Shown here: positions 1 through 61,015 of the stretch, piece after piece | How the letters are laid out: each line of letters begins with the position of its first letter | How positions within the stretch are numbered: position 1 is the first letter of the stretch | Source: Octopus vulgaris | Taxonomy: Eukaryota | Assembly (NCBI GenBank): GCA_951406725.2 | Contig: OX597826.1 | Location: forward strand, 39,494,001-39,558,000 | Direction of reading: 5' to 3' | DNA: 64,000 nucleotides | Notes under the pieces: model-generated | What the model was told of the DNA's origin: nothing | The model's input: only the letters and a program-made list of their open reading frames with translations | Database searches by the model: none | Program-made: the position numbers and the translations under genes

Positions 1-408
1 GAGCTCTTGAATAAAGAAAAGAGTATAAATTTTAATAAATTGCAACTATAAATCAAAATAGTTCAAATCGAGGTCATCATCTTTGTATTTTCATAATTTT
101 TTGCTAAATTCAGATTTTTGTTTATCATAATTTTAAGACTTTCAAGACGTTTGAAGACAGTTTCAAGCCGTATTCTTTACTTTTATGGAAACCGATATTC
201 ATTTTTCCCCCTTTTTCGATTGATGATTTTTATTGATTATTTCTGAATTGTTTTCTTATTTTTGCTATTTTGTTGGGTATTTGAGTTTGTAATGTGATCA
301 GGACGAATATCATTTTTCACATGTTAAAATGAACCAGGCGACTGTAGAAATAGAAATACAAACTGCATAGTAAATAATTTTTAGTACGTTTATAACCAGC
401 ATTATCCT

Positions 409-409
409 A

Positions 410-502
<93 letters not shown>

Positions 503-602
503 CATAGGATAATGTATATATATATATATATATACATAGGATAATATATATATATATGTATATATATATGTGTGTATATAGCCATGTGCATGTGTATGCA
601 TA
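409..602. repeat. (TA)n microsatellite complex
   Basis: Direct reading. Confidence 0.95.
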
Positions 603-9950: not shown

Positions 9951-10875
9951 TCTATTGTTCCAATGTTCAAAGTTTTTTTATATTTATGATTTATGAAGAC
10001 ACAAGAAGGAAGTGGCAAAGAAATCGTATAGAAGCGCTTTTTAATTTTTTTCTCTTGGCAAAGTGTATGAAAAAAATTACATAGATATACATTGAAAAGG
10101 TTAGGGTATTCAATAAAGACAAGTGAGTAGAGTCACGGGTTAACAGTTAGAATCTAAATTTTGTAAATTTTTGAATCTACTTAAACACGTTGGAATCGTA
10201 AGTGAAATTGATAGAAACGGTAGTGATATATTCCCCTTTTGACATAAAGGCAGGTGTTGTGTATTTAAACAGCTGGTGTTGATGGAATAAATCATTATTC
10301 ACCTGGTACGAAAAGAGAAAAACAAACTCTATGCTATCGGGAATTTGAATGTCATATATTTGGAAGAAAGTTTTCAGGCCAGATGCGCTAGTTCGAACAA
10401 CATAGAAGCGAAGATAGCTGGTGCAGGTTAGTAGAGAACAACGATTATCATTGCTCAGATGCCGCCGGATTAGCATGCCCTCGCGGAGATTTTTAGTTCT
10501 GGGATTAAATATTAGAGTTTCCTTCCTGTAATAAGACGAAATGCTACTACAATGGGGAGAGAAGTGGTGGCTCAAGCCAAACGACCTATTGTACTGGAGG
10601 CTTACATGTCTGGATCTTTCTTGTTATTTTCTAAATTTATTCATGCGGCGACCATTCACGTTAAAGAAAACTGCAATGCCGTCATCTCTGTGCATCTTTA
10701 CAGAGACTTGGTAGTTTGCTGAGAGCGTTTGCCAGTTCCGTCATAGATTCTTTTGGAGTCTTTGAAAAAAGGGGCTCCGTGAACATAAAGCGCCGCTCAG
10801 CAGTCTTTATGACTCATACCAATGCTACTTATACAAGTAAATGTTTTCCTGAATTTAGAGTTCAATTATATTGAA

Positions 10876-11270
10876 CTAGCAGTATCGCCCGGCGTTGCTC
10901 GGGTTTGTAAGGGAAATAACTATATAAGCATTTTTAGAGATGTAAAGTATAATAGCCATCTCAATATGGTTAATCACAAAGGAGGGGGGTGTTACTGTAG
11001 CTTTTTACGTTCTGAGATTTAATAATAAATTTTTAGAGAGTTACTTCCCTTATATATGCACAAAATGCATTAAAAATGGGAAAAATTGATGGTAAATTTT
11101 TTTTTAAATCGTAGACTCATCGTAGACGCACGCTAATACCCAGAAGGGCTCGATATGAATCACGACTATAAGATACCCAGTTTTGGTTAATCTGCACCGC
11201 AAAATGTGGGAGTAGTTAGGAATCTAAATTGTAGGAGACAGACACACAACCTCACTTTTATATATAAAGA
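10876..11270 (-). mobile_element. Non-autonomous Helitron (395 bp)
   Basis: Minus strand begins A|TCTTTATATATAAAAG and ends with a subterminal hairpin (cccg...cggg) followed by CTAG|T; no TSD. Sister copy at 54365-54661. Confidence 0.85.
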
Positions 11271-11593
11271 TTAGATAAGTCTGCTTTATTTTCTATTGAA
11301 ACGTTTGATGACGGTGACCCCCAATTTCCCTATGCTAACCTCGTAGTATTTTTTAATTTTAGAGTCACATACGCGCATGCTTCATTTTCGAGAGGGTCAT
11401 TAGTGTACACATGAGTTTGAGTAGAAAATTGTTCTTAAAATTAATTTAAAATGATAATGTTTACACATAACAACATGCTCTACGAAGTCCAGAGGATTTT
11501 TTCTGTAGTTATAATCGTTTCTGTCTCTCAACAGGAGTAAGACTTTATTTATTTGGAGATCATACACCTGAATCAAATTATATAAAGATCTAT

Positions 11594-14668: not shown

Positions 14669-14933
14669 GTAAAAAAACACAACTGGGACAAGAACGCAAA
14701 ACATTTAGAAGACGATACAAAAAAACCGACGGGACATTCGAAGCCTTCGATCTTCAGTCAAGAACCGGATCATCTTCGCAATTTCGGCTGATTAATCTTG
14801 AGATTGCTCCGACCTGGCCAGCCCCAAAGCAAAATCTAAGCCAAGCGCATTAGATTCCTTGGAAGAAAGCCTCGAATGTCTACTTCGTGTGGTGTGTGAA
14901 TTAAAATAATGAAGTATGATTAAATCTATATAC

Positions 14934-15372
14934 GGATCTTTTCGGTTTGAACGGCAGTTTTTTAAAATAATTTCCACGTAACTAAACACTTTTAAACTTC
15001 GTATACTGGTAGAATGTGTTTATAAAACATCTTTTTCTCTTGGCTTTATTGAAAAAATTCTATAGTTTGTAAGATATGTGTTGTCTTTTTTCTTCAATTT
15101 CTGCAATTTCAACCAATCAATGACGTCTATTGAGGTGAAAACATTCTGTGCCGCATGAATATGTCCCTCGTTTAAGAAACAGATTGGGTTTATTTACAGT
15201 TGTGAAGAAAAAAAAAACTTCCCCCCCAACCCTAACCATAACCCTAACGCTAACCCTAACTCTAACCCTAAAACAGATTGAAATGCAATAGATCGATACT
15301 AGGGTCATAATTATGGGTGACAATTTCATATGACACCGCTAGAAAAAACTGCCGTTCAAACCGAAAAGGTCC
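14934..15372. mobile_element. Non-autonomous DNA transposon/MITE (Merlin-like) with 8-bp TSD
   Basis: TIRs GGATCTTTTCGGTTTGAACGGCAGTTTTT and AAAAACTGCCGTTCAAACCGAAAAGGTCC. Exact TSD CTATATAC at 14926-14933 and 15373-15380. Internal (CCCTAA)n-like tract. GG termini with an 8-bp TSD fit Merlin. Confidence 0.85.
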
Positions 15373-15692
15373 CTATATACTTTTAAAATATGTGACCTGT
15401 GCCAATATACAATTATAATTATCATAATAAGTATTTCTACCATATGCACAAGACCAGAATTACAATAACTTCAGAACCTCCACCTTTTGGCATAGCCCAC
15501 ATCCAACACACGAAAATTCCATTTCGATGTCGTAGACCATGTAAAACTCACATTACATAACCAATACTGAATAAAATAGCACAACCGATGCAATACTTAA
15601 TCTACACAACCACCACCACGCAATACATACTCAGCATAATTCCTGGCCGATAACATAACATATAACACAAATCATATAGCGTCAACAAAATA

Positions 15693-16118
15693 GGATCTTT
15701 TCGGTTTGAACGGTAGTTTTTTCTAACTGTGTCGTATGAAATTGTCACCCATAATTATGACCCAAGTATCGTTCTATTGCATTTCAATCTGTTTTAGGGT
15801 TAGGGTTAGGTTTAGGGGTGGGGGGGAAGGGTATCTTTTTTTTTCTTCACAAATGTAAATAAACCCAATCTGTTTCTTAAACGAGGGACATATTCATACG
15901 GCACAGAATGTTATTTACCTCAATAGACGTCATTGATTGTTTGAAATTGCAGAAATTGAAGAAAAAACCCCACAAATATCTTACAAACTATAGAATTTTC
16001 TCAATAAAGCCAAGAGAAAAAGATGTTTTATAAGCACATTCTACCAGTATACGAAGTTTAAAATCTTTTAGTTACCTAGAAATTATGTTAAAAACTGCCG
16101 TTCAAACCGAAAAAATCC
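15693..16118. mobile_element. Second copy of the same MITE in inverted orientation
   Basis: Same TIRs; the interior is the reverse complement of 14934-15372 (TTAGGG tract at about 15794-15817). No TSD seen. Confidence 0.85.
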
Positions 16119-16212
16119 GTTATTTTTAATGATTACGCGCTGTTAAGACTGCATTCAAATAAAGTCAGTGTTCTATGCATGAGCATGTCTCGTTTTTACT
16201 TTACCAACATTC

Positions 16213-20068: not shown

Positions 20069-20442
20069 AAAACTTCACCTGCCTATATGCCAGCTTCTAT
20101 CTCAAGAGGGACATCGGTTACTATATGATACAACTGTATATACCTAGCATCCTTATCGTATTCTTGTCGTGGGTTTCCTTCTATCTAAATGTGTCAGCTG
20201 TACCTGCACGAATATCATTAGGAATTCTAACTGTTCTTACGCTGACAACTCAAAGATCTGCAGGAATAGCGGCCTTACCTAAAGTCTCCTATATCAAAGC
20301 CATTGATGTGTGGATGGCATCTTGTCTCTGCTTCGTTTTCGCAGCACTTTTAGAGTTTGCCTTCGTTAACGTTTTGGACAGGCGATATTTAAAGATTATT
20401 GCCTCCATGAAAGAAAACGAACTCACTGGAAAATGTCCCGAG
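20069..20442 (+). CDS. Internal coding exon of a Cys-loop ligand-gated anion channel subunit (glycine receptor/GluCl-like): end of loop C, TM1, TM2, TM3, start of intracellular loop
   Basis: Acceptor ttctttcttacacag|AA at 20068/20069 and donor GAG|gtgagt at 20442/20443. Translation (x)[105 protein letters not shown]... matches GlyR/GluCl hallmarks (YIPS, SWVSF, PAR anion-selectivity motif, [19 protein letters not shown]). Confidence 0.96.
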
Positions 20443-20554
20443 GTGAGTACACACACACACACACACACACGCATATGCATTTGTTTCATAATTCTGTTTT
20501 GTTTTCAATAATAAATCTCTGAACGAGATGTAAACAGTAACCGCTCGACAACGT

Positions 20555-20831
20555 AAAGTATACTAGCCATCTCAATATGGCTAACCACTAAGGGTGGGTG
20601 TTACTGTAGCTTTTAGCCCCAGGAGATCATCGTCTCCAGTTGGCTTTAAGGCACACTTTCTGTGCCCTTATGGTATTTGCTACGAGAGAGGGATGACCTC
20701 CTCGTAGCAAATACCATAAGGGCACAGAAAGTGTGCCTAAAGCCAGCTAGAGACGATGATCTCCTGGGGCTAAAAGCTACAGTAACACCCACCCTTAGTG
20801 GTTAGCCATATTGAGATGGCTAGTATACTTT
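20555..20831. repeat. Near-perfect 277-bp palindrome/hairpin (foldback or MITE-like element) in the channel intron
   Basis: aaagtatactagccatctcaatatggctaaccactaagggtgggtgttactgtagc...tttgctacgag pairs with ctcgtagcaaa...gctacagtaacacccacccttagtggttagccatattgagatggctagtatacttt. Arms about 130 bp, with few mismatches and a loop under 15 nt. Confidence 0.95.
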
Positions 20832-23196
20832 CTGTTTTGTTTTGTTTTAGAGTTACTGAGCTTTACAAATATCTGAGTGCTAAGGATCTCTGGTTCTGTG
20901 CTGCAGAATTAGCGATTTGTGTCTTATAACCAAAGATATGATGTATCCACATTTATGAAGATTTTTAACTGTCAGAAGGACACTGTCTACCATATTTCTC
21001 AACACACATTCTCTATTGAAAATGAAGGCTGACCTGCACAATTTACAGCCAGCCAAAAGAAACCCAAGTGTATGCATGTCGCAATATTTAGTATTGCTAA
21101 TATCTATCATACCTAAAAATCGGAAGAAATTCAGCTGGGCAATAATTCTTTCTATTTATTGGTTCTTTCTATTTATTTTAGTTGTTGCATGCTACTAAGG
21201 TAGTAAAGACGCACATGTCAGCCTAAGAAGTCTTTAAGTGTTGTGGAGCCGAGTCAATATGTTATTAAATACTTAAGTACTTACTACTCTGACTAAATAA
21301 GTTGATTGCTACTTTCATTCTCTCTCATATCTTTTAGATTCGTTTATGGTGACGTTAGGGGTGTGTAAATAAAACCCCCATTTCATTATGCCGGGTACCG
21401 CCTAATGATACTGGCTAGTCAGTCAGTTTTTCGGGGTTGCATTTTGGTTAGAGATATGATGTAGGATAAATATAATAATAACAATAATTCTAGGATGGCA
21501 TTTATAAATATTTAATACATCGCGACGTGCGTTTCCATAATTCACACGATTTCAACATCAGAGTCGGTGTCCTTGGGATTAGTACAGTATAGTCTGTATT
21601 ATCCGTGGGCATCATCATTGATTCATTTCATCAGGCGATATAACAATAGTGGATTATTCACAGAGGGATGTTTATCCTTTCTTGCCAGTATGAAAGCCTC
21701 TCTAACAATGTGAGCATTTCTGTAAGTACTTAGGTGGGGGAGGAAGGTGATGGGAGTAAAGGAAGGTGATGGTAGTAATATGGGGATGGAGATGTGTGTG
21801 GTGGTGTTGGATTTATCTCCTATTCATTCTGCAGACTTTAAAGATGGTCATTCATTCAGCAGATTTAAGAAAGGTAGTAATATTTCATTCATAACCTGAC
21901 TCTCTTAAATAAATTCTGAACTCAACAGGTCAGCTGCTATTCAGTGGGGTTTGTTGACCAAATTGATTAATACCACTGCTCTTGTAGTGACATTTTCATT
22001 GTTTCTATGAATAACCGATGTCGTAAAGTTCCATGAGAGATCCTGGCTTTCGTGAACATGTACAAGCGCAAGGCAGCGAGCTGTCAGAAATGTGAGCACG
22101 CCGGGCGAAATACTTAACTGTATTTCGCCTGTCTTTGAGTTCTGAGTTCAAATTCAGCCGAAGTTGACTTTGCCTTTCATCCTTTCGGAGTCGATAAATT
22201 AAGTACCAGTTGCGTACTTGGATCGATCTAATCGGCTGGCCCATTCCCCCACAATGTCGGATCTTGTGCCTAGAGTAGAAAAGAATATGTAGAAGCGTAT
22301 AGTGTCGGTACAGGTATCGAGCGTAAACCACGTGGTAGCCTTTGTAAGAAACTCCGTGTCTGGGTCGCGAATGGATCGTCAGTGGATCATATATCCGGAA
22401 AAAAAGTGCGAATATGGATTGAAATTTCCTCCTCTGTGTTAGAGAATGAAAAAATAAACCGAGTGGAAATTCTTAAAAGATGTGTGCGTGTGTGTGTTTG
22501 TACGTGCGTGTCTTTGTGTGTGTGTGTGTGTGCGTGTGTGTTTGCGTATGTGTCGGTGTGTGTGTGTGCCTGCGTGTGTGTGGTGGCGAAATTATTTAAG
22601 GTGTCAAGAATTACTGCACCGAGTAAATTTGTATGCTTTGCAAAATATCGGACTGATCTTTCTTTACTGATCAAGGGACAACAATTGACATGTTTCGGTT
22701 TATTTGGCCTCATCAGCATAAAATGATCTAATTGAGTCTGTAAAAATATGCAAAGTATTCCTTAAACAATTTAAGTAAACCTTTTTCTGTATGTTTAAAC
22801 CTATACACTGAGCTGCTGTCTAGGCTAGACTGTACCCTGCTGGTGATATTGAATGAGCTGACACAGATATCAATGAATATCTCTTCAAAATAAAGGTTAA
22901 ACTCTCCTTTCCTTAAAGATGTACTATGAAAATTATTTTTGAATTATCTCCCCTTCTTATTGAGACCCGTTATCAATCGTCACTGGGTTTACGTTTAGGA
23001 AAGAAATGACAATAAATAAATTATTCATTATATGCAGCTTTCTGACATGATCTTTATAATTTAATTAATCAAATTCATAGTATTGGTCTCTTTAGATCTC
23101 TTTTACATAAACGTATTAGTATGTACATGAACAGTATATAAACATATTTTTATACGTACGTATACATACATACATATATACATACATACACACACA

Positions 23197-23227
<31 letters not shown>

Positions 23228-23449
23228 GTAAATGGGTAACAAAGATGTACAGGTGTCAATTCATTGCGGCCATTTGAAGTGTCTCCTTTAATTGATTAAT
23301 GCAGACATTACATCATTGCAAAGAAACCGTTTTCGTCAGATGACTGTATAGACTTCACACACAAAAGACAAACCAATTGCTTTAACATATTCGTATCACC
23401 ACCGGAGCTCAAATATTTACATTGATTCGGCCTTTATATCTTTATAGCA

Positions 23450-23770
23450 GGCGGCTGGCTTAGTGGCTCGGGCATTCAGCTCACGATTATAAGGTCGTGA
23501 GCTTAAATACCAGTGACGCGTTGTGTCCGCGTGCAAGACATTTTATTTCACATTGCTCCAGTTCACTTAGCTGGTAAAAATGTTGTAGTACCCGTATTTC
23601 AAAGGGCCAGCCTTGTCACCCTCTGTGTGACGCTGAATCTCCCTGAGAACTACGTTAAGGGTACACGTATCTGTGGAAATACTCAGCCACTTGCATGTTA
23701 ATTTCACGAGCAAGCTGTTCCGTTGATCGTATCAGCTGGGGCCCTCGTCGTTGTAAGCGATGGAGTGTTC
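23450..23770 (+). mobile_element. Diverged SINE related to family A body type 1
   Basis: Shares gtatttcaaagggccagccttgtcac...gaactacgttaagggtacacg...ttcacgagca with 2609-2992; the head is different or diverged. Confidence 0.7.
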
Positions 23771-23832
<62 letters not shown>

Positions 23833-23907
23833 ATGTACATGCATACCGATATATAAACGTGTGTATGTTTTTTTCTCATTGTAATTCTATTTCTTATTCT
23901 GTTTCAG

Positions 23908-24078
23908 GTTAATGACAGAGTCAAATCAAAGCGATTTAAGTGGATTCGCGACCCCAGAGGTCAACAGAAGGCAGCATATATTGACTTTTTGGCTCGGATA
24001 ACTTTTCCAATAGCCTTTGGTATATTCTGTATAATATATTGGCTCGTCTATGGAGTAGTTGGGGTGAAAGAAGAATAA
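23908..24078 (+). CDS. Terminal coding exon of the same Cys-loop channel (TM4 and stop)
   Basis: Acceptor ttcttattctgtttcag|GTT, phase 0, matching the upstream donor. Reads VNDRVKSKRFKWIRDPRGQQKAAYIDFLARITFPIAFGIFCIIYWLVYGVVGVKEE*, with the ID..R..FP..F..F...YW TM4 signature. Not in the supplied ORF track because it lacks an ATG. Confidence 0.93.
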   Translation, partial: VNDRVKSKRFKWIRDPRGQQKAAYIDFLARITFPIAFGIFCIIYWLVYGVVGVKEE

Positions 24079-25975: not shown

Positions 25976-27406
25976 TTGGCAAACACGTAACGATACATCA
26001 CTCTCCACGCGCGCGCACTTATTTACACACACAAACATATACACACACATACACATACGCACGCACACACATAACATTGCAAAGCAATTCTAAATATCAA
26101 AAAAAAAAGCTAGACTATAGATGAAACTCTGGATTGAGAGTTCGTTATATTTTGTTGTATTGGTATACAGTTTGACGTGTTTGTGTTTATTATATTTTCC
26201 CCATCTTTCAACCAACCCCAGCAACAATATTCAAGATCAGACTTTGTCCTAACCTCGGTACCCCTTTATAAGCATCCATCCGCGCACGCACAACAGAATA
26301 CATGAAACACCTGATATCGCTAAATGAAATATCAGCTCTACTGTTCTGTTCCTGTTTATCAATTGTTTTTGTTATGGCGCAGAGATAGGTTGGCTCACAT
26401 GCTGTTGAGACCTATGATGAAAAGCGTTCCAACTGTGACCATTCCATCGAATTTTCTCATTCCTGTTGTGTTATGACAACAATATGCAATGTGATCATTC
26501 TCCTTTTTGTGACGAACACAGGACGTTGTGATTTGAGGGAGATTTTGGCTGTTATTTCAAGCAGGTCGACAACTGTTACGTAACGACGCACCCACGGGAT
26601 CGTCGCTGTTTTTCTATTTACTATTTACCGTTTATGAAATTTTGGAAGCATGAGTCCTTGATATTTGCAACCGATAAATCAAAGAAACTCCATAATAAGA
26701 CCCAAAACTAAGCCTCTATAGAGACTTCTTGCTTTAGCGACGACCTCTCTGTAGTTGTATCCCATGTCTACAAGTAAACACAGCCACTTGACTAGCCCAC
26801 ACCAAATGGCCTTACGTATCGATTCCCCTAGCAGTGACATCAAGGTCATTTTATTTTACAACCAAGAGTGTAGGTTTTGCTTTCCAGACATTCCGACAAA
26901 TATCCTAATAGCTGACGTTACTTTTCCTGTAATCAAAGTTCTGAGTAGACCGGACTAATAAACCTAATATCAAACGAAACACCACAGAAGGCACAGTTCA
27001 ACGTTTAAAATAATGTTCCTATAGTGTTCAGTTTTGCTGTTAATTCTTCTTGTAACACTAGCTACAAGACACATGATCAACTCGTTCTGCTTTTCAACTT
27101 CATGGATTCTACATGAATATTTATGTTCCCAAAGAGGCAAAGTATAGCCCACTAAGTCATATGAAATGCATCAACTTGACATGGCCCGCAATAAACTTGC
27201 AAAGTTCCTTTATTTGGCTTGTTTAACATATTTGATAGATACGGTTTTCCCAAAGTTCATGAAGGAGATACGGCAGAATTCACACGGGAAATATGCCAAG
27301 GACAATCATGAAAGTATAGTAATTATGAGTGTGTAAACTGTAACGATAACCGAGATTGAATAAATATTTCGACGAAGATATCACACACGCACACACAAGC
27401 GCACGC

Positions 27407-30461: not shown

Positions 30462-33308
30462 CGTTGTGTCTGTGTTTGTTCCCCATCGCCGCTTGACAAC
30501 CGGTGTTGGTTGGTGTGTTTACGTCCCTGTAGCATACCGGTTCGGCTAAAGAGACCGATAGAATAAGTACTAAGCTTTAAAAAAGTCCTGGGATCGATTT
30601 GTTCGACTAAAACCCTTCAAGGCAGTGTTCCAGCATGGCCACAGTCAAATGACTGAAACAAGTAAAAGAATAAAAAATATATAATAAAGAAATGAAAAAT
30701 AGGTGTCCATACACTGATAAACAGTTTAGTCCCTTAAGATTAGAAGGGAGAAGGCGAGAAGAAACTTTCAAATTACAAGGAGCCCAAAATAAGGCAATAA
30801 AAACTAAATACGGATGTGTTTACCTGCTCCGCCTCACATTTAATTCCCAGTTCCCATTTTTTTCTCAAAACAATCAAAGACCTGATGGAACAACAAAACG
30901 AACTGAAGGGAAGACGAAGAAAGTGACCATAATGTGTTGGTTGACGATTATAGACTGAAATTTTGTAGAATATCTCAAAATGCTAGAGTATTATGGAGAA
31001 GGCACACATGCAGTCTATAAAGTCACAGACATTTTCGGATAAAGCAGTTTCGGGCATAGCAATTTCGTGGAGTTTCAAGCGTCCACGACAATGGGCTGCT
31101 CTGGCAGACCTATACTAACTAATGGTGTCTCACTCTTGTGGGTGGGTAACTCGAACATGTTTTTACATTAATATTATATCTTGTTTAATTATTGTGTATT
31201 TTATGTAATTTTCTATTTACTCTGTTTTTTATCAAATTTTAATAAGTTCACTGTATAATATTTGCACCCCCTCCCCTCGATTTTATATAACTTCATCGTG
31301 TCCGGTCCCACTTGTTTTGTAGCCTTCCATCCAGGTTTTAACGTTTATTAAATGTGTAAGTCCTTGAGGATAATAAAGAACAATTATTATCATTGTTATT
31401 ATTATTGTTATTATGATAATTTATATTTTATGCTGGAAGACATCTAACCTACTCAGACGTCATTCTTTTTGCCTCGGAGCGAAATAGTTTTACTGTGCGG
31501 AATATAGTTATACTTAAATTACTGGCAAAGTGATTGATTCGGAAAGTCTGGAGTCTATTTATGTAGGATCTAGACGAATTCCAAGTTACACTCTTCAAAA
31601 GAATAAAAGAGGAACGAATATTCACGTGCACAGGGCACGTAAGAAAAACCCAGAAAACATTGTACACAAAGAGACGAGATGCAACAGAAAAAATATATTA
31701 ATGACAATTATCTTGAGAGCATTTTGCTAATGTAAACGATACTAGTTTCAATGTTCAAAAACATTATCTCTCCCCCTCTCCTTTTCTCTCCCCCCTCTCT
31801 CTCGTACGCGCGCGTGCCCGGTACCAAACCAAAATACTAAAAACGTTAGATATGAATTCAGTTTTGTCCGTGTAACAAGTCAGACGGGGACCCGAAAATA
31901 GAGAATTTTCCCTAGTAAAGGGAGACTGCTGCGCGAGACAAGATATTTCTGTCTGAATAATACATACTACAACGAGCAAAATATAAATACCCTTATTTGT
32001 GATTTTTTAAGAGCAATTGGAAAATACATACATGCTTTATCTGGTGAAATTCTCTCATTTGATCTTAGTAAGGCATGCTGAACGGTATGCTGTGTTTTTA
32101 GTACCGAGAACTTGGCCTTAAAATAGGCTACCCATACACTCGTGCTCCAGTGTCTGAGGAAAAGAAATACAAAAGCTCAGTCGTTATACTTGTGTCAGTA
32201 AAAACCTTTTGAGGGCATTTTACGTTGAAGAGTTGAAAAAGTTAGAAAGGCGAAGACAAAGTCAAGACTGAGAACAACAGAGGCAGCAAGACCCATTTTC
32301 TATTACAGCTTTAATCACAGCTCCGGAAATGGCAGATCATTTTCCGGATATCATTTCGCGGCCGATGCTGGAAACAAATAAACAACCCATCTGTAGCAAA
32401 CACCGTTGGCACCCTATTTTCTCGTGATCAGCATGAAATAGAGGAGTACCAAGAAGAATTACCACCGAATGTACAAAAGGACAAAATCAAGGAAAACTTT
32501 GAAAGAGAAGAGTGGTTTCCAACAAGAGAGAAAAGAAAGTCTTTTTTATGAGAAAATAAGAGTTACTAGAGAGCTTTCTTAGAAGCTTGTAAAGTGGAAG
32601 GAGAAAGGGAGATAACGAAGGTAGCAGAAGGAAAGCAGAGTCAGCAATGCTAGCAGAAGCACCCTCATGCTACTGTTTCCAAAACATCACCTATTACAGC
32701 TCCATCAACGAAGCTGAAGCTGACAATCAGGAAAACTAAAAATCCTCTCTCAATAATATAAGTCCATCGTCTTGTGATAATAAAGAGAAAGAGAGAGAAA
32801 TAATTATATGAAAGCTAATGAATCCAAAACCAAAGTGTAGCTGAAACAATATATGAAAAGAATCCTGTTCCTAACGAAGACTGGCGAATGAAAATCATGA
32901 GCCTGAAATCAAAGAGGGTGTTCTGAAATGCAGTAATGAAGACGATCTTTTGTTCGAGGAAGGAGAAAAAGGGCAGGATTTTGGGCAATATTCAAACGAT
33001 GCATTTTTATTGAAAATTAGCACCATAAAACAATCATTTCCAGTTGATGTTGCATTCTATAAAGAAAATATTCAGTTGTATCTCGGTGTATCAATTTCCA
33101 AGAATGATTGGTAGACAGCCAAGTTAACTGAATGTGCTGACTCAACTTAGCTAATTGTTTGTCACCCATGTGGGTGGAGAGTAGCCCTATTCGTTTTTAA
33201 CCTTTCTTTAGATTATATATTTTGTTATTTATAACAATAATTATTATGATTATTAACAAAAAATAGTGAGACCTAGATTTTAGATCAGTAGAGGACTATT
33301 TAAATATA

Positions 33309-34142
33309 TTATAATTTAGAACAAAGAGTAAAGGGTTGTCATTATAGTCCTCGGAGTTTCGAATGTAGGAGCGAAAAGCTACGATACATTCTCGTCGGCT
33401 ATTAATGGCAACGGATGCTATGAAAAACCGTTGAATAAAGATGAACTTACTCTAACAGATAGAAAAAAAGATAAAAGAAAAAATTGCACGCAACCATATT
33501 CTCACAATACATAGACACAAATCTCCTGTGTTCACAACGTCTACATACGTACACACTCATACAAACATGTGTGTGAATATGTGTGTATGTATGAGTACGT
33601 CCATGCATATATGCTTGTGTGTGTATATGTACATGTACGTATACATGTTTGTGTAAGTGTGTACGTATGTAGACGTTGTGAACGCAGGAGATTTATGTCT
33701 ATATATTGTGAGAATATGGTTGCGTGTATTTTTTCTTTTTTTCTTTTTCTAACTATTAGAGTAATTTCCCTTTTATTCAACGGTTTTTCATAGCGTCTGT
33801 TGCAATTAATAGCCGACGAGAACGCATCGTAGCTTTTCGCTCCGGCATTCGAAACTCCGAGTACTATAATGACAACCTTTTACTGTTTGTTCTAAATCAT
33901 AACATATATGTGTGTATGTGTGTGTGTGCGCGCGTATGTGTGTGTGTGTGCTTTGTAAGTTTTCACACGTTTTGCTTTCTTTTAGTAATGAATCTATGTA
34001 TGAATTTCCCTTTTATTCAACGGTTTTTCATAGCATCCGTTGCCATTAATAGCCGACGAGAATGTATCGTAGCTCTTCGCTCCGGCATTCGAAACTCCGA
34101 GTACTACAATGACAACCTTTTACTGTTTGTTCTAAATTATAA
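33309..34142. repeat. Long inverted repeat (arms about 33309-33570 and 33643-33902) plus a direct partial third copy (about 34002-34142)
   Basis: ttataatttagaacaaagagtaaagggttgtcattatagtcctcggagtttcgaatg... is the reverse complement of ...cattcgaaactccgagtactataatgacaaccttttactgtttgttctaaatcataa. Confidence 0.9.
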
Positions 34143-44241: not shown

Positions 44242-44430
44242 ATATTGTTGTATTTAGGAATGGTCATTTTGCCAGTTTAGCCAATAAAAACACACGCACT
44301 ATATATTTGGTGTTACTTTGCTTCAGTGTTATTTATTTTTTACATTAATCTTATTCTTATTTCGGCCAGAGTTCTTTCGTCACACTCCTGGCTAAACTGG
44401 CAAAATGACCATTCCTAAATACAACAATAT
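44242..44430. mobile_element. Small foldback/MITE-like element with about 42-bp perfect inverted termini
   Basis: atattgttgtatttaggaatggtcattttgccagtttagcca ... tggctaaactggcaaaatgaccattcctaaatacaacaatat. Confidence 0.75.
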
Positions 44431-54248: not shown

Positions 54249-54351
54249 ATAGGAAAAAAGCAACAAGAATGGATCAATATATCGGTACAATAGTTTCGTA
54301 CGAGGACAATTGTACCGATATATTGATCCATTCTTGTTGCTTTTTTCCTAT
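54249..54351. repeat. 103-bp near-perfect palindrome
   Basis: ataggaaaaaagcaacaagaatggatcaatatatcggtacaat ... attgtaccgatatattgatccattcttgttgcttttttcctat, centred on tcgt|acga. Confidence 0.9.
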
Positions 54352-54364
54352 ATATATATATATA

Positions 54365-54661
54365 CTAGCAGTATTGCCCGGCGTTGCTCGGGCTTTTAAG
54401 GGAAATAACTATATAAGCATTTTTAGAGAGTTACTTCCCGTATATAATAGCAAAAAAATGCATTAAAAATGGGAAAAAATGATGGTAACTTTTTTTAAAT
54501 CGTAGACTCATCGTAGACGCGCGCTAATACCCAGAAGGGCTCGATATGAATCACGACTATAAGATACCCGATTTTGGTTAAACTGCACCGCAAAATGTGG
54601 GAGTAGTTAGGAATCTAAATCGTAGGAGACAGACACACAACTTCACTTTTATATATAAAGA
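54365..54661 (-). mobile_element. Non-autonomous Helitron (297 bp), shorter variant of 10876-11270
   Basis: Same TC and hairpin-CTAG termini, inserted in an AT dinucleotide; lacks about 98 bp of internal sequence. Confidence 0.85.
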
Positions 54662-54684
54662 TATATATATATATTTATATATAC

Positions 54685-58592: not shown

Positions 58593-59671
58593 TTTGTGTG
58601 TGTGTAACATATATATATGCTGGTGGTTCACCCCTTATGCAGAGTCTGACAACCTCTTGTACCTCTACTTTAGATCCATCATGGCGTCTGATGCGGTTGA
58701 TCTCTAAAAAGAAGAAATATGCTATATTAAATCTATGAGCGAGACACAAACAGTAGCAATACAGAATCGCATCACGTAAGGCTAGAGATGAGAGGGATGA
58801 CCTCCCCTTGCAAATACCGATCGGGCACAGAACGTGTGGAGGAGATGTCTTCCTGGAGCTATAAAAGTCAGTAGCACTGTCCTGTACAGGACGCCACACT
58901 TGGTTGGCAATCATATGTTACGATTGCGAATTGCTACTGTTTATATCTCACTCAGAGATTTAATATAGCTTTATTTCTCCTTTTTCGAGATCACTACAAC
59001 TTCAGAATATTTCGCAAAGCTTCATTAAAATGTTCATATGAAGCGAATAAATTCAAATTCGCAGCCATAATACATAATATAATGCATAATATACACGCAC
59101 ATATGCACTCAGATACACACATACATGTACATATACACATACATGTGTACATGTGGGTGTTTGTGAATATTATAAATGGTGATATTAAATTATTTACTGG
59201 GAATTACTGTTTAAATACTTTTTTGTTTTTTTTTACTATTCTTTTCGTGTGTTTCCTATATTGAAACCATTTGTGAATTCGTGTATAATTTAATTGGTAT
59301 GTGCAACATGTATTTTATTATCTGTTTACAGAAACCAATGTTCCGGGAACAGAGCGAATGGTTAACTAAAAGAAAATATTTTGACATAAATTAAATTTAA
59401 ATGTTGAAGTGAATCTAACGGTTTTTGTGTGTTTTTTTTAAACAGCTTCTAAACACCTTCCACGCAGCAATTGTTAATTTCTATTTAATTAAGTATCTAA
59501 TGCTCCAGAGTATAATTTAAACATTTTATTTTTAGCGGCATTTCTTCCGGCTCTTTACGTTCTGGGTTCAAATTCTGCCGATGTAGAATTTTCCTTTCAT
59601 CCTTTCAAGGTTGATAAAATAAGTACAGTTGTGCACGGGGGAGGGGGGTCGATTCAATCGACTAGCCCATT

Positions 59672-60246: not shown

Positions 60247-60980
60247 TACTTTGAAATGGATGCGTGGCGTTCAATCAAATAATAATATAAGTAATATATA
60301 TATATATGCATACTTATATATATTTACACATATGCACATATACATACATATACGTACATACATATATATGTATGTAGATATGCATATATGGATACAGGAC
60401 GTCAAAAAACGTAAACAACATGAAATACGAAAATAAAGTTGTGTACGCGAACAACGAGAGAAGCAAATGGAAAAAAAAAACAAGTAACATAAAAAACAAC
60501 GCTTCATCAGTTGTCCGCTGTCTTTCTACTCCTTATTTCGAGCATTGAACGACAATATAAGACTTTGAAGACAGATGCTCCCGTGAACCAAAATAAAATT
60601 TGGGATTTGCGGGGAATCAACGTTGGTAACAAAAACAGGACAGTGGAGACATACAAGGAAACCGAACGAACATAAACATGGAGGGTCGGTAGACTAGACG
60701 AGGTAAAGCAGTGAACGCTTGAGAAATATTGTTTTTGACATGAGAAGAGATAGAAGAGATTGATAGGAATACGTTCAGTCTGTACGACAGCACTGAAGGG
60801 AAAGAAAGATGACCACGTGAGGAAAAGAAGGATGGACGATGGTTACGTTTGAACAACCACAGAGAGTAAAGGAAGAAGAGGGGGAGAGAGCCGTTTTCTA
60901 TATGTCTCTCGCTCCCTCTTCCTCCTTTACTCTCTCTCGTTGCTCACACGTGACTATCGTCCATCTTTCTTTTTCTCACG

Positions 60981-61015
<35 letters not shown>

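What the first reader, a model, noticed from the sequence alone, without database searches (positions are those of the whole stretch)
20555..20831. Long intronic hairpin 112 nt downstream of the pore exon: candidate ADAR editing-inducer element
Seen: a near-perfect stem of about 130 bp, starting 112 nt after the donor of the TM1-TM3 exon. Established: coleoid cephalopods recode neural transcripts heavily by A-to-I editing, and in the mammalian Cys-loop gene Gabra3 a long intronic stem-loop just downstream of the edited exon recruits ADAR and boosts editing. Inference: this transposon-like foldback could act the same way on the channel pre-mRNA. It could equally be a neutral recent insertion, since related sequence occurs at about 10942-11005 and 58785-58915.
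Basis: partly seen in the sequence, partly recalled or inferred. Interest (0 to 1): 0.7.

Follow-up and report, generated by a model that had tools for sequence, protein, structure and literature searches.

The report
Young retrozyme fold-back beside channel exon
The hairpin is real and is one recent head-to-head insertion of an abundant octopus repeat whose family carries a hammerhead-ribozyme motif, likely pasted by a Penelope-type retrotransposon, so it is probably an ordinary mobile-element footprint and not an evolved editing enhancer, although one possible A-to-G recoding site in the neighbouring exon leaves an incidental effect open.

Summary
The hairpin at 20555-20831 is real (-268.8 kcal/mol, z -37), 112 nt after the donor of a glycine-receptor-like exon. 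It is part of a 326-bp insertion (20506-20831) with a 49-nt extension at one end and a 14-bp target-site duplication. The family has a 357-nt tandem, ORF-less unit with a type I hammerhead motif (420 canonical and 83 U3-A8 exact cores, control 0). This copy lacks the ribozyme. Of 56 copies picked by ribozyme or spacer, 28 are inverted, all head-to-head, with ends at two fixed sites: the Penelope-type insertion pattern. The copy is young: 3 differences from the family majority in 298 nt. The exon has no predicted structure beyond chance. RNA contigs from four studies are spliced; three show A at 20268, and one shows G (Ile to Met at the GlyR R271-equivalent position, UAG context, 287 nt away). 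That is either editing or an allele. Verdict: a new member of a known kind. A dedicated, conserved editing inducer is not supported; an incidental Alu-like effect stays open (about 0.13). The scan has noted similar octopus retrozyme fold-backs on other DNA before.

The parts
20069..20442 (+). Penultimate coding exon (pre-M1 to M3-M4 loop) of a glycine-receptor-alpha-like Cys-loop channel gene
   Evidence: peptide identical to Octopus proteins P0004, P0122, P0123; spliced RNA contigs in 4 of 4 runs
20266..20268 (+). ATA codon (Ile321 in P0004 numbering, aligned to GlyR alpha-1 R271). A>G at 20268 gives Met; candidate editing site or allele, UAG context
   Evidence: 1 of 4 RNA-run contigs (X2); DNA contig of X17 over this base has 0 differences; alignment
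20492..20505 (+). Left copy of the 14-bp target-site duplication
20506..20554 (-). 49-nt 3' tail of the repeat (monomer positions about 170-218), present at this end only
20555..20688 (-). Left arm: 5'-truncated 3' part of the 357-nt monomer (from position about 37), antisense on the + strand
20681..20831 (+). Right arm: monomer positions about 20-169, ending at the tail-less 3' site. The rearranged junction lies at about 20681-20712; no hammerhead is included
20830..20843 (+). Right copy of the 14-bp target-site duplication (overlaps the last two T of the arm)
23908..24078 (+). Last coding exon (M4 and stop); the host intron is 20443-23907
10942..11005 (-). 60-65-nt piece of the same monomer (positions 110-171) carried inside a different dispersed repeat
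58790..58971 (+). Old, 66%-identical relative of monomer positions 25-221

Best explanation
The hairpin is a young 326-bp head-to-head insertion of two 5'-truncated 3' ends of a 357-nt, ORF-less, hammerhead-motif-bearing repeat (a non-LTR retrozyme type), flanked by a 14-bp duplication and likely made by a Penelope-type RT/GIY-YIG enzyme acting in trans, so its place next to the exon is probably chance and it is probably near-neutral. Shown: boundaries, duplication, family, tandem unit, ribozyme motif, two fixed 3' ends, head-to-head geometry, low divergence. Inferred: the enzyme makes a staggered cut about 14 nt apart in AT-rich DNA and primes reverse transcription from both strands, one from the tailed start site and one from the tail-less site. 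The two cDNAs stop shortly before the ribozyme and are joined at their 5' ends, which gives the fold-back. Once in the intron it would form long dsRNA in the pre-mRNA and would likely be edited itself by ADAR, like other repeat duplexes, with no evidence that it was selected to steer exon recoding.
For: All 40 scored candidates (of 2625) gave near-full-length fold-back matches at 84-95% identity across many chromosomes. The spacer query gave 2075 candidates. The monomer is 357 nt, 41.7% GC, in partial tandems; no PLE-type ORF was recognised beside 60 copies. Hammerhead: stem I 6 bp, stem II 4 bp, 2-bp stem III with a palindromic TGCA loop. 95% of cells pair, with a U3-A8 to C3-G8 double change. 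There are 420 canonical and 83 variant exact cores against 0 in reversed controls. 14 of 27 ribozyme-picked and 14 of 29 spacer-picked loci are inverted, 28 of 28 head-to-head. Outer ends cluster at monomer positions about 171 and 220. In 17 of the 18 inverted copies with both ends classifiable, one end has the tail and the other does not (10 of 28 unclassifiable; hand count). A duplication of 10 nt or more is found in 14 of 18 hairpin copies, three of them TA-rich and weak. Intact-looking RT+GIY-YIG ORFs of 781 aa exist in the genome. This copy has 3 differences from the family majority in 298 nt, whereas the flanks differ by about 7-9% in DNA run X20. The literature describes this architecture (PMC8557442, PMC3846280) and two-strand cleavage with two RT start sites (PMC11167929).
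Against: No autonomous partner sharing the repeat was found. The monomer matched none of the sampled Penelope terminal repeats in 25 loci; the single hit was a separate copy about 600 bp from a Penelope fragment. The tail is 49 nt against the 30-40 nt reported. The two arms within a copy are more alike (2.6%) than arms between copies (4.4%), which also fits fold-back copying from one template. Ribozyme activity and circular RNA were not tested. Neutrality is inferred, not measured. One A>G candidate lies 287 nt upstream.
Confidence: 0.82

Rival explanations
1. Same origin, but the fold-back acts as an incidental, lineage-restricted editing inducer (inverted-Alu type): it concentrates ADAR on the pre-mRNA and raises Ile>Met recoding at 20268, the 19' position at the mouth of the pore.
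For: One RNA contig (X2) differs from the window only by A>G at 20268, a non-synonymous change in a UAG context (the ADAR preference for UAG is recalled). Ile is genomic in all four Octopus proteins, and the DNA contig of X17 has A. Induction is sequence-independent and still works at double the Gabra3 distance (PMC4053975, passages). Known edit-to-inducer distances are 32-230 nt (PMC5654063, section 9); ours is 287.
Against: X1, X5 and X11 carry A at the site; contigs drop minor variants, so this is absence of majority editing only. There is no matched DNA for X2, so an allele is not excluded. The exon is not structured beyond shuffles (z -0.33; -1.11 around the site), and its predicted fold around the site changes with the window used. 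In squid, robust recoding is neural-type and mostly separate from repeat-associated editing (PMC9068888, passages).
Confidence: 0.13
2. An evolved, conserved Gabra3-type editing-inducer element maintained by selection.
For: Position, 112 nt downstream of a Cys-loop TM exon, and a long stable duplex.
Against: Transposon hallmarks and 1% divergence from the family majority. The 3 private changes weaken rather than compensate the stem. The same structure occurs at dozens of unrelated loci, and six other fold-backs lie in this 64-kb window.
Confidence: 0.03
3. A MITE or foldback DNA transposon with long terminal inverted repeats.
For: Short, non-coding, high-copy, near-perfect inverted repeat.
Against: The ends are asymmetric (49-nt tail), the duplications are long and variable (12-16 nt), the centres differ in every copy, half the copies are not inverted, and the unit is tandem with a ribozyme motif.
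Confidence: 0.02

Closest known systems
Metazoan non-LTR retrozymes (Cervera and de la Pena 2020, PMC7229834; bioRxiv 10.64898/2026.07.22.740005)
   Same: Tandem unit of 150-450 bp (357 here; 350-390 in mussel), GC under 50%, type I hammerhead with a 2-bp helix III, no ORF, long target duplications
   Different: Here copies are mostly partial tandems and inverted pairs, and this copy lacks the ribozyme; a subfamily has the U3-A8 core; circular RNA is not shown
Insertions of endonuclease-bearing Penelope-like elements (PMC8557442, PMC3846280, PMC11167929; U3-A8 core in PMC4209133)
   Same: 5'-truncated copy inverted head-to-head, tail at one end only, two fixed 3' ends, AT-rich targets, target duplication
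   Different: No ORF; no autonomous element sharing the repeat found; tail of 49 nt; duplication of 12-16 bp against 8-10 bp in Adineta
Gabra3 intron-9 editing-inducer element (PMC3479170, PMC5654063)
   Same: Long intronic stem-loop just downstream of a Cys-loop TM exon; the candidate change is also Ile>Met
   Different: The Gabra3 element is conserved from chicken to human, has 54 bp in 149 nt, and serves an exonic hairpin 143 nt away in M3. This one is a young near-perfect 130-bp repeat insertion, the candidate site is at M2 19' and 287 nt away, and no exonic hairpin is predicted
Inverted Alu repeats as editing inducers (PMC4053975)
   Same: Lineage-specific transposon duplex near an exon; the best model for any effect here
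   Different: Shown by deletion experiments there; untested here

Membership tests
Non-LTR retrozyme | Tandem monomer of 150-450 bp, GC under 50%, no ORF | tested here: met
   357 nt, 41.7% GC, partial tandems, no coding ORF in the unit
Non-LTR retrozyme | Type I hammerhead motif in the monomer | tested here: met
   Family level. The window copy itself lacks it. Rfam did not report it in 3 loci
Non-LTR retrozyme | Target duplication longer than 4 bp | tested here: met
   14 bp here; 10 nt or more in 14 of 18 hairpin copies
Non-LTR retrozyme | Self-cleavage and circular RNA intermediates | not testable with these tools
   RNA-run contigs match the family but show neither cleavage nor circles
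Penelope-type insertion | Inverted 5'-truncated copy, head-to-head | tested here: met
   28 of 56 loci inverted, 28 of 28 head-to-head
Penelope-type insertion | Tail at one end only (two fixed 3' ends) | tested here: met
   Ends at about 171 and 220; 17 of 18 classifiable inverted copies have one of each; the tail is longer than the 30-40 nt reported
Penelope-type insertion | Autonomous RT+GIY-YIG element sharing the terminal repeat | tested here: inconclusive
   Such ORFs exist but none of 25 loci sampled, out of 6136 candidates, shares the repeat as its own terminus
Editing-inducer element | Long stable duplex in the pre-mRNA | tested here: met
   (predicted fold)
Editing-inducer element | An efficiently edited site within a few hundred nt | tested here: inconclusive
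   A>G at 20268 in 1 of 4 RNA contigs, no matched DNA
Editing-inducer element | Edited site lies in its own short duplex | tested here: inconclusive
   Exon z -0.33, site region z -1.11 and 0.01; best duplex partner (-41.1 kcal/mol at about 26536) is within the range of other exon 51-mers (-25 to -42)
Editing-inducer element (conserved Gabra3 type) | Evolutionary conservation with compensatory changes | tested here: not met
   Young repeat copy, 3 private changes in 298 nt and none compensatory. Orthologous introns could not be read directly
Editing-inducer element | Duplex itself edited; deletion lowers exon editing | not testable with these tools
   No RNA contig links the hairpin to its unique flanks; needs raw reads and a minigene
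MITE / foldback DNA transposon | Symmetric terminal inverted repeats, fixed short duplication, uniform structure | tested here: not met

The most novel reading that the evidence does not exclude
Penelope-type two-ended priming mass-produces perfect fold-backs, and those landing beside exons act as ready-made ADAR recruiters. This one would switch on or raise Ile>Met recoding at the R271-equivalent gating position of an octopus glycine-receptor-like channel, only in the species that carry the insertion: a transposon route to species-specific recoding in cephalopods.
Probability: 0.13. Interest if true: 0.65.

Novelty: new member of a known kind. Interest (0 to 1): 0.24.

Why it matters
As it stands it is an ordinary footprint of a known element type. 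It is useful mainly as a caution that long perfect intronic hairpins in octopus come by the hundreds from Penelope-type insertion. If the incidental-inducer reading held, a young insertion that is present in close relatives and probably absent in farther ones would be a natural with-and-without experiment on how new recoding sites arise in cephalopods, at a residue known (recalled) to control gating in the human glycine receptor.

Tried and rejected
Rfam on 3 loci found no hammerhead, only chance microRNA-like hits; the motif was found by eye and then counted by pattern. The 5,220 exact matches of an arm 23-mer are not a copy number for this element: 24 of the 30 sampled were a 51-65-nt piece, as at 10942-11005, apparently carried by another repeat. 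The search for an editing-complementary sequence gave nothing outside the background range. Edits fixed in DNA among 103 family loci: no strong one-strand A>G or T>C excess (largest 9 against 2), none in this copy. A>G rows inside the hairpin in RNA runs come from family transcripts of other loci, and the thresholds differed from the DNA call, so they were not used. No listed sequencing run is on record as RNA; the four used are guessed RNA, supported by contigs that begin at the exon edge and skip the intron. Published editing tables: no glycine-receptor rows in the single supplementary file held for each of PMC8382921 and PMC9068888; PMC5499236 is not held. Unseen site tables could confirm or exclude the Ile>Met site. 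My descriptor script found no hammerhead in the 781-aa Penelope copies, although a similar U3-A8 core is visible by eye in the printed 3' ends. In one search two loci were oriented wrongly; one search replaces that analysis. The binomial value printed used wrong counts and is discarded.

Full report
Observation. The fold-back at 20555-20831 is real: MFE -268.8 kcal/mol, z -37.5, none of 100 shuffles as stable. The arms differ by one bulge, one C-A mismatch and one G-U pair. It starts 112 nt after the donor at 20443. The exon 20069-20442 encodes the transmembrane region of a glycine-receptor-alpha-like Cys-loop channel. Its peptide is identical in Octopus proteins P0004, P0122, P0123 and P0124. 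The last coding exon is 23908-24078, and no earlier exon was found in the window.

True extent. Comparing 18 distinct genomic copies shows that the element begins at 20506, 49 nt before the stem, and ends at 20831. A 14-bp direct repeat flanks it (20492-20505 and 20830-20843). Duplications of 10 nt or more flank 14 of the 18 copies, mostly 12-16 nt; three are TA-rich and weak. The loop differs in every copy, so each fold-back was formed separately.

Family. All 40 scored candidates of 2625 gave near-full-length fold-back matches. Longer copies reveal a 357-nt unit, 41.7% GC, in partial tandems. The part missing from the window copy holds a type I hammerhead motif: 6-bp stem I with an extension, 4-bp stem II, 2-bp stem III closed by palindromic TGCA, and a GUC cleavage triplet. 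In 31 distinct rows 95% of cells pair, against 24-55% when slid, and the core pair switches from U3-A8 to C3-G8 in one row (the rows are close relatives, so covariation is thin). Exact counts are 420 canonical cores and 83 of one U3-A8 sequence, with reversed controls at 0. The window's sense arm matched all 30 canonical-core loci examined. An arm 23-mer has 5,220 exact matches, but 24 of 30 sampled are a short piece spread by another repeat.

Mechanism. Among loci picked by ribozyme (27) or spacer (29), without regard to hairpins, 28 are inverted, all 5'-to-5'. Outer 3' ends fall at monomer positions about 171 or 220. In 17 of 18 inverted copies with both ends classifiable there is one of each (10 more were unclassifiable; hand count). 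This is the layout described for Penelope-like elements: an inverted 5'-truncated copy and a tail at one end (PMC8557442 and PMC3846280, passages). A purified Penelope protein cuts and extends both strands of AT-rich DNA from two internal RT start sites that delimit the tail (PMC11167929, parts 1-2 of 4 read). I infer a staggered cut, priming from both strands at the two start sites, and joining of the truncated cDNAs. Arms within a copy are more alike than arms between copies (2.6% against 4.4%, 16 copies), so copying from one template or fold-back priming is not excluded. The genome holds many RT+GIY-YIG ORFs of 781 aa, but none of 25 such loci shares this repeat as its own terminus, so the helper is unidentified. 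The unit fits non-LTR retrozymes (PMC7229834, passages; bioRxiv 10.64898/2026.07.22.740005, part 1 of 5 and passages, 'octopus' not mentioned). The U3-A8 core is known from Schistosoma (PMC4209133, part 1 of 4). A search for octopus + hammerhead ribozyme + retrozyme returned 3 papers, 2 listed, neither presented as describing such a family (listing, plus passages of PMC8557442); Repbase and Dfam were not available.

Age. The copy differs from the family majority at 3 of 298 positions. DNA run X20 differs from the window by about 23 of 269 and 20 of 310 letters in the flanking introns. At half that rate, 3 or fewer changes has P 0.002-0.008, so the insertion probably postdates that split. Contigs of X16 (right junction) and X17 (left junction) show it in close relatives. 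An empty site in X20 is suggested but not shown.

Editing. Four guessed-RNA runs from four studies each give one contig over 20069-20439 that skips the introns. X1 and X5 have 0 differences. X2 has one, A>G at 20268. X11 has two that were not displayed, neither at 20268. The change turns ATA into ATG (Ile321Met), at the position aligned to GlyR alpha-1 R271, in a UAG context. It may be editing or an allele, and contigs hide minor editing. It lies 287 nt from the stem. Known inducers lie 32-230 nt from their sites (PMC5654063, section 9), but the Gabra3 element still worked at double distance and inverted Alus act over several hundred nt (PMC4053975, passages). Against a dedicated role: the Gabra3 element is conserved and serves an exonic hairpin (PMC3479170, passages), whereas this exon folds no better than shuffles and no convincing complementary sequence was found. 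No RNA contig ties the hairpin to its own flanks, so editing of this copy is untested. In squid, repeat-associated editing is ubiquitous and largely distinct from neural recoding (PMC9068888, passages). Six other fold-backs lie in this window, two of them upstream of the exon. With hundreds to about a thousand family fold-backs and roughly 4% of the genome within 300 nt of an exon (rough estimate from recalled gene numbers), tens would lie this close to an exon by chance.

Verdict. Observation confirmed and extended. The element is a new member of a known kind; this scan's earlier notes report similar octopus retrozyme fold-backs on other DNA, consulted after I had reached this reading. A conserved inducer is unlikely (0.03); an incidental inducer effect is possible (0.13). 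Interest 0.24.

Noticed in passing
window 20266-20268: Candidate Ile>Met recoding site at the GlyR R271-equivalent position; a more distant ortholog cluster (P0006, 78-83% identical) has Ala there. This channel also has Arg at the position aligned to GlyR S267.
   Followed up: partly
window about 10875-11271 and 54364-54662: A dispersed repeat, Helitron-like by its ends (recalled), that in many copies carries a 60-65-nt piece of the retrozyme 3' end; it accounts for most of the 5,220 matches.
   Followed up: partly
window 401-545, 14932-16120, 33304-33907, 44242-44430, 54249-54351, 60815-60981: Other fold-backs or inverted pairs (up to 612 bp, 84-100% arm identity); no hammerhead core was found in them by a simple pattern.
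   Followed up: partly
window 58698-58993: A 66% relative of the monomer enclosed by 73-bp inverted ends; an older fold-back of a related family.
   Followed up: partly
L136-L142 (for example L139:268-3968): Young Penelope-like family with a 781-aa RT+GIY-YIG ORF, an overlapping 479-aa upstream ORF in some copies, terminal direct repeats, insertion into (TA)n, and what looks by eye like a U3-A8 hammerhead core near the 3' end.
   Followed up: partly
window 20243-20293 with 26536-26590: Best predicted duplex for the candidate site region (-41.1 kcal/mol; other 4-kb blocks -25 to -36.5), 2.5 kb past the stop codon and rich in G-U pairs; within the range seen for other exon segments.
   Followed up: partly
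window before 20069: None of the upstream exons of the channel gene was found in the first 20 kb, so the preceding intron exceeds 20 kb.
   Followed up: no
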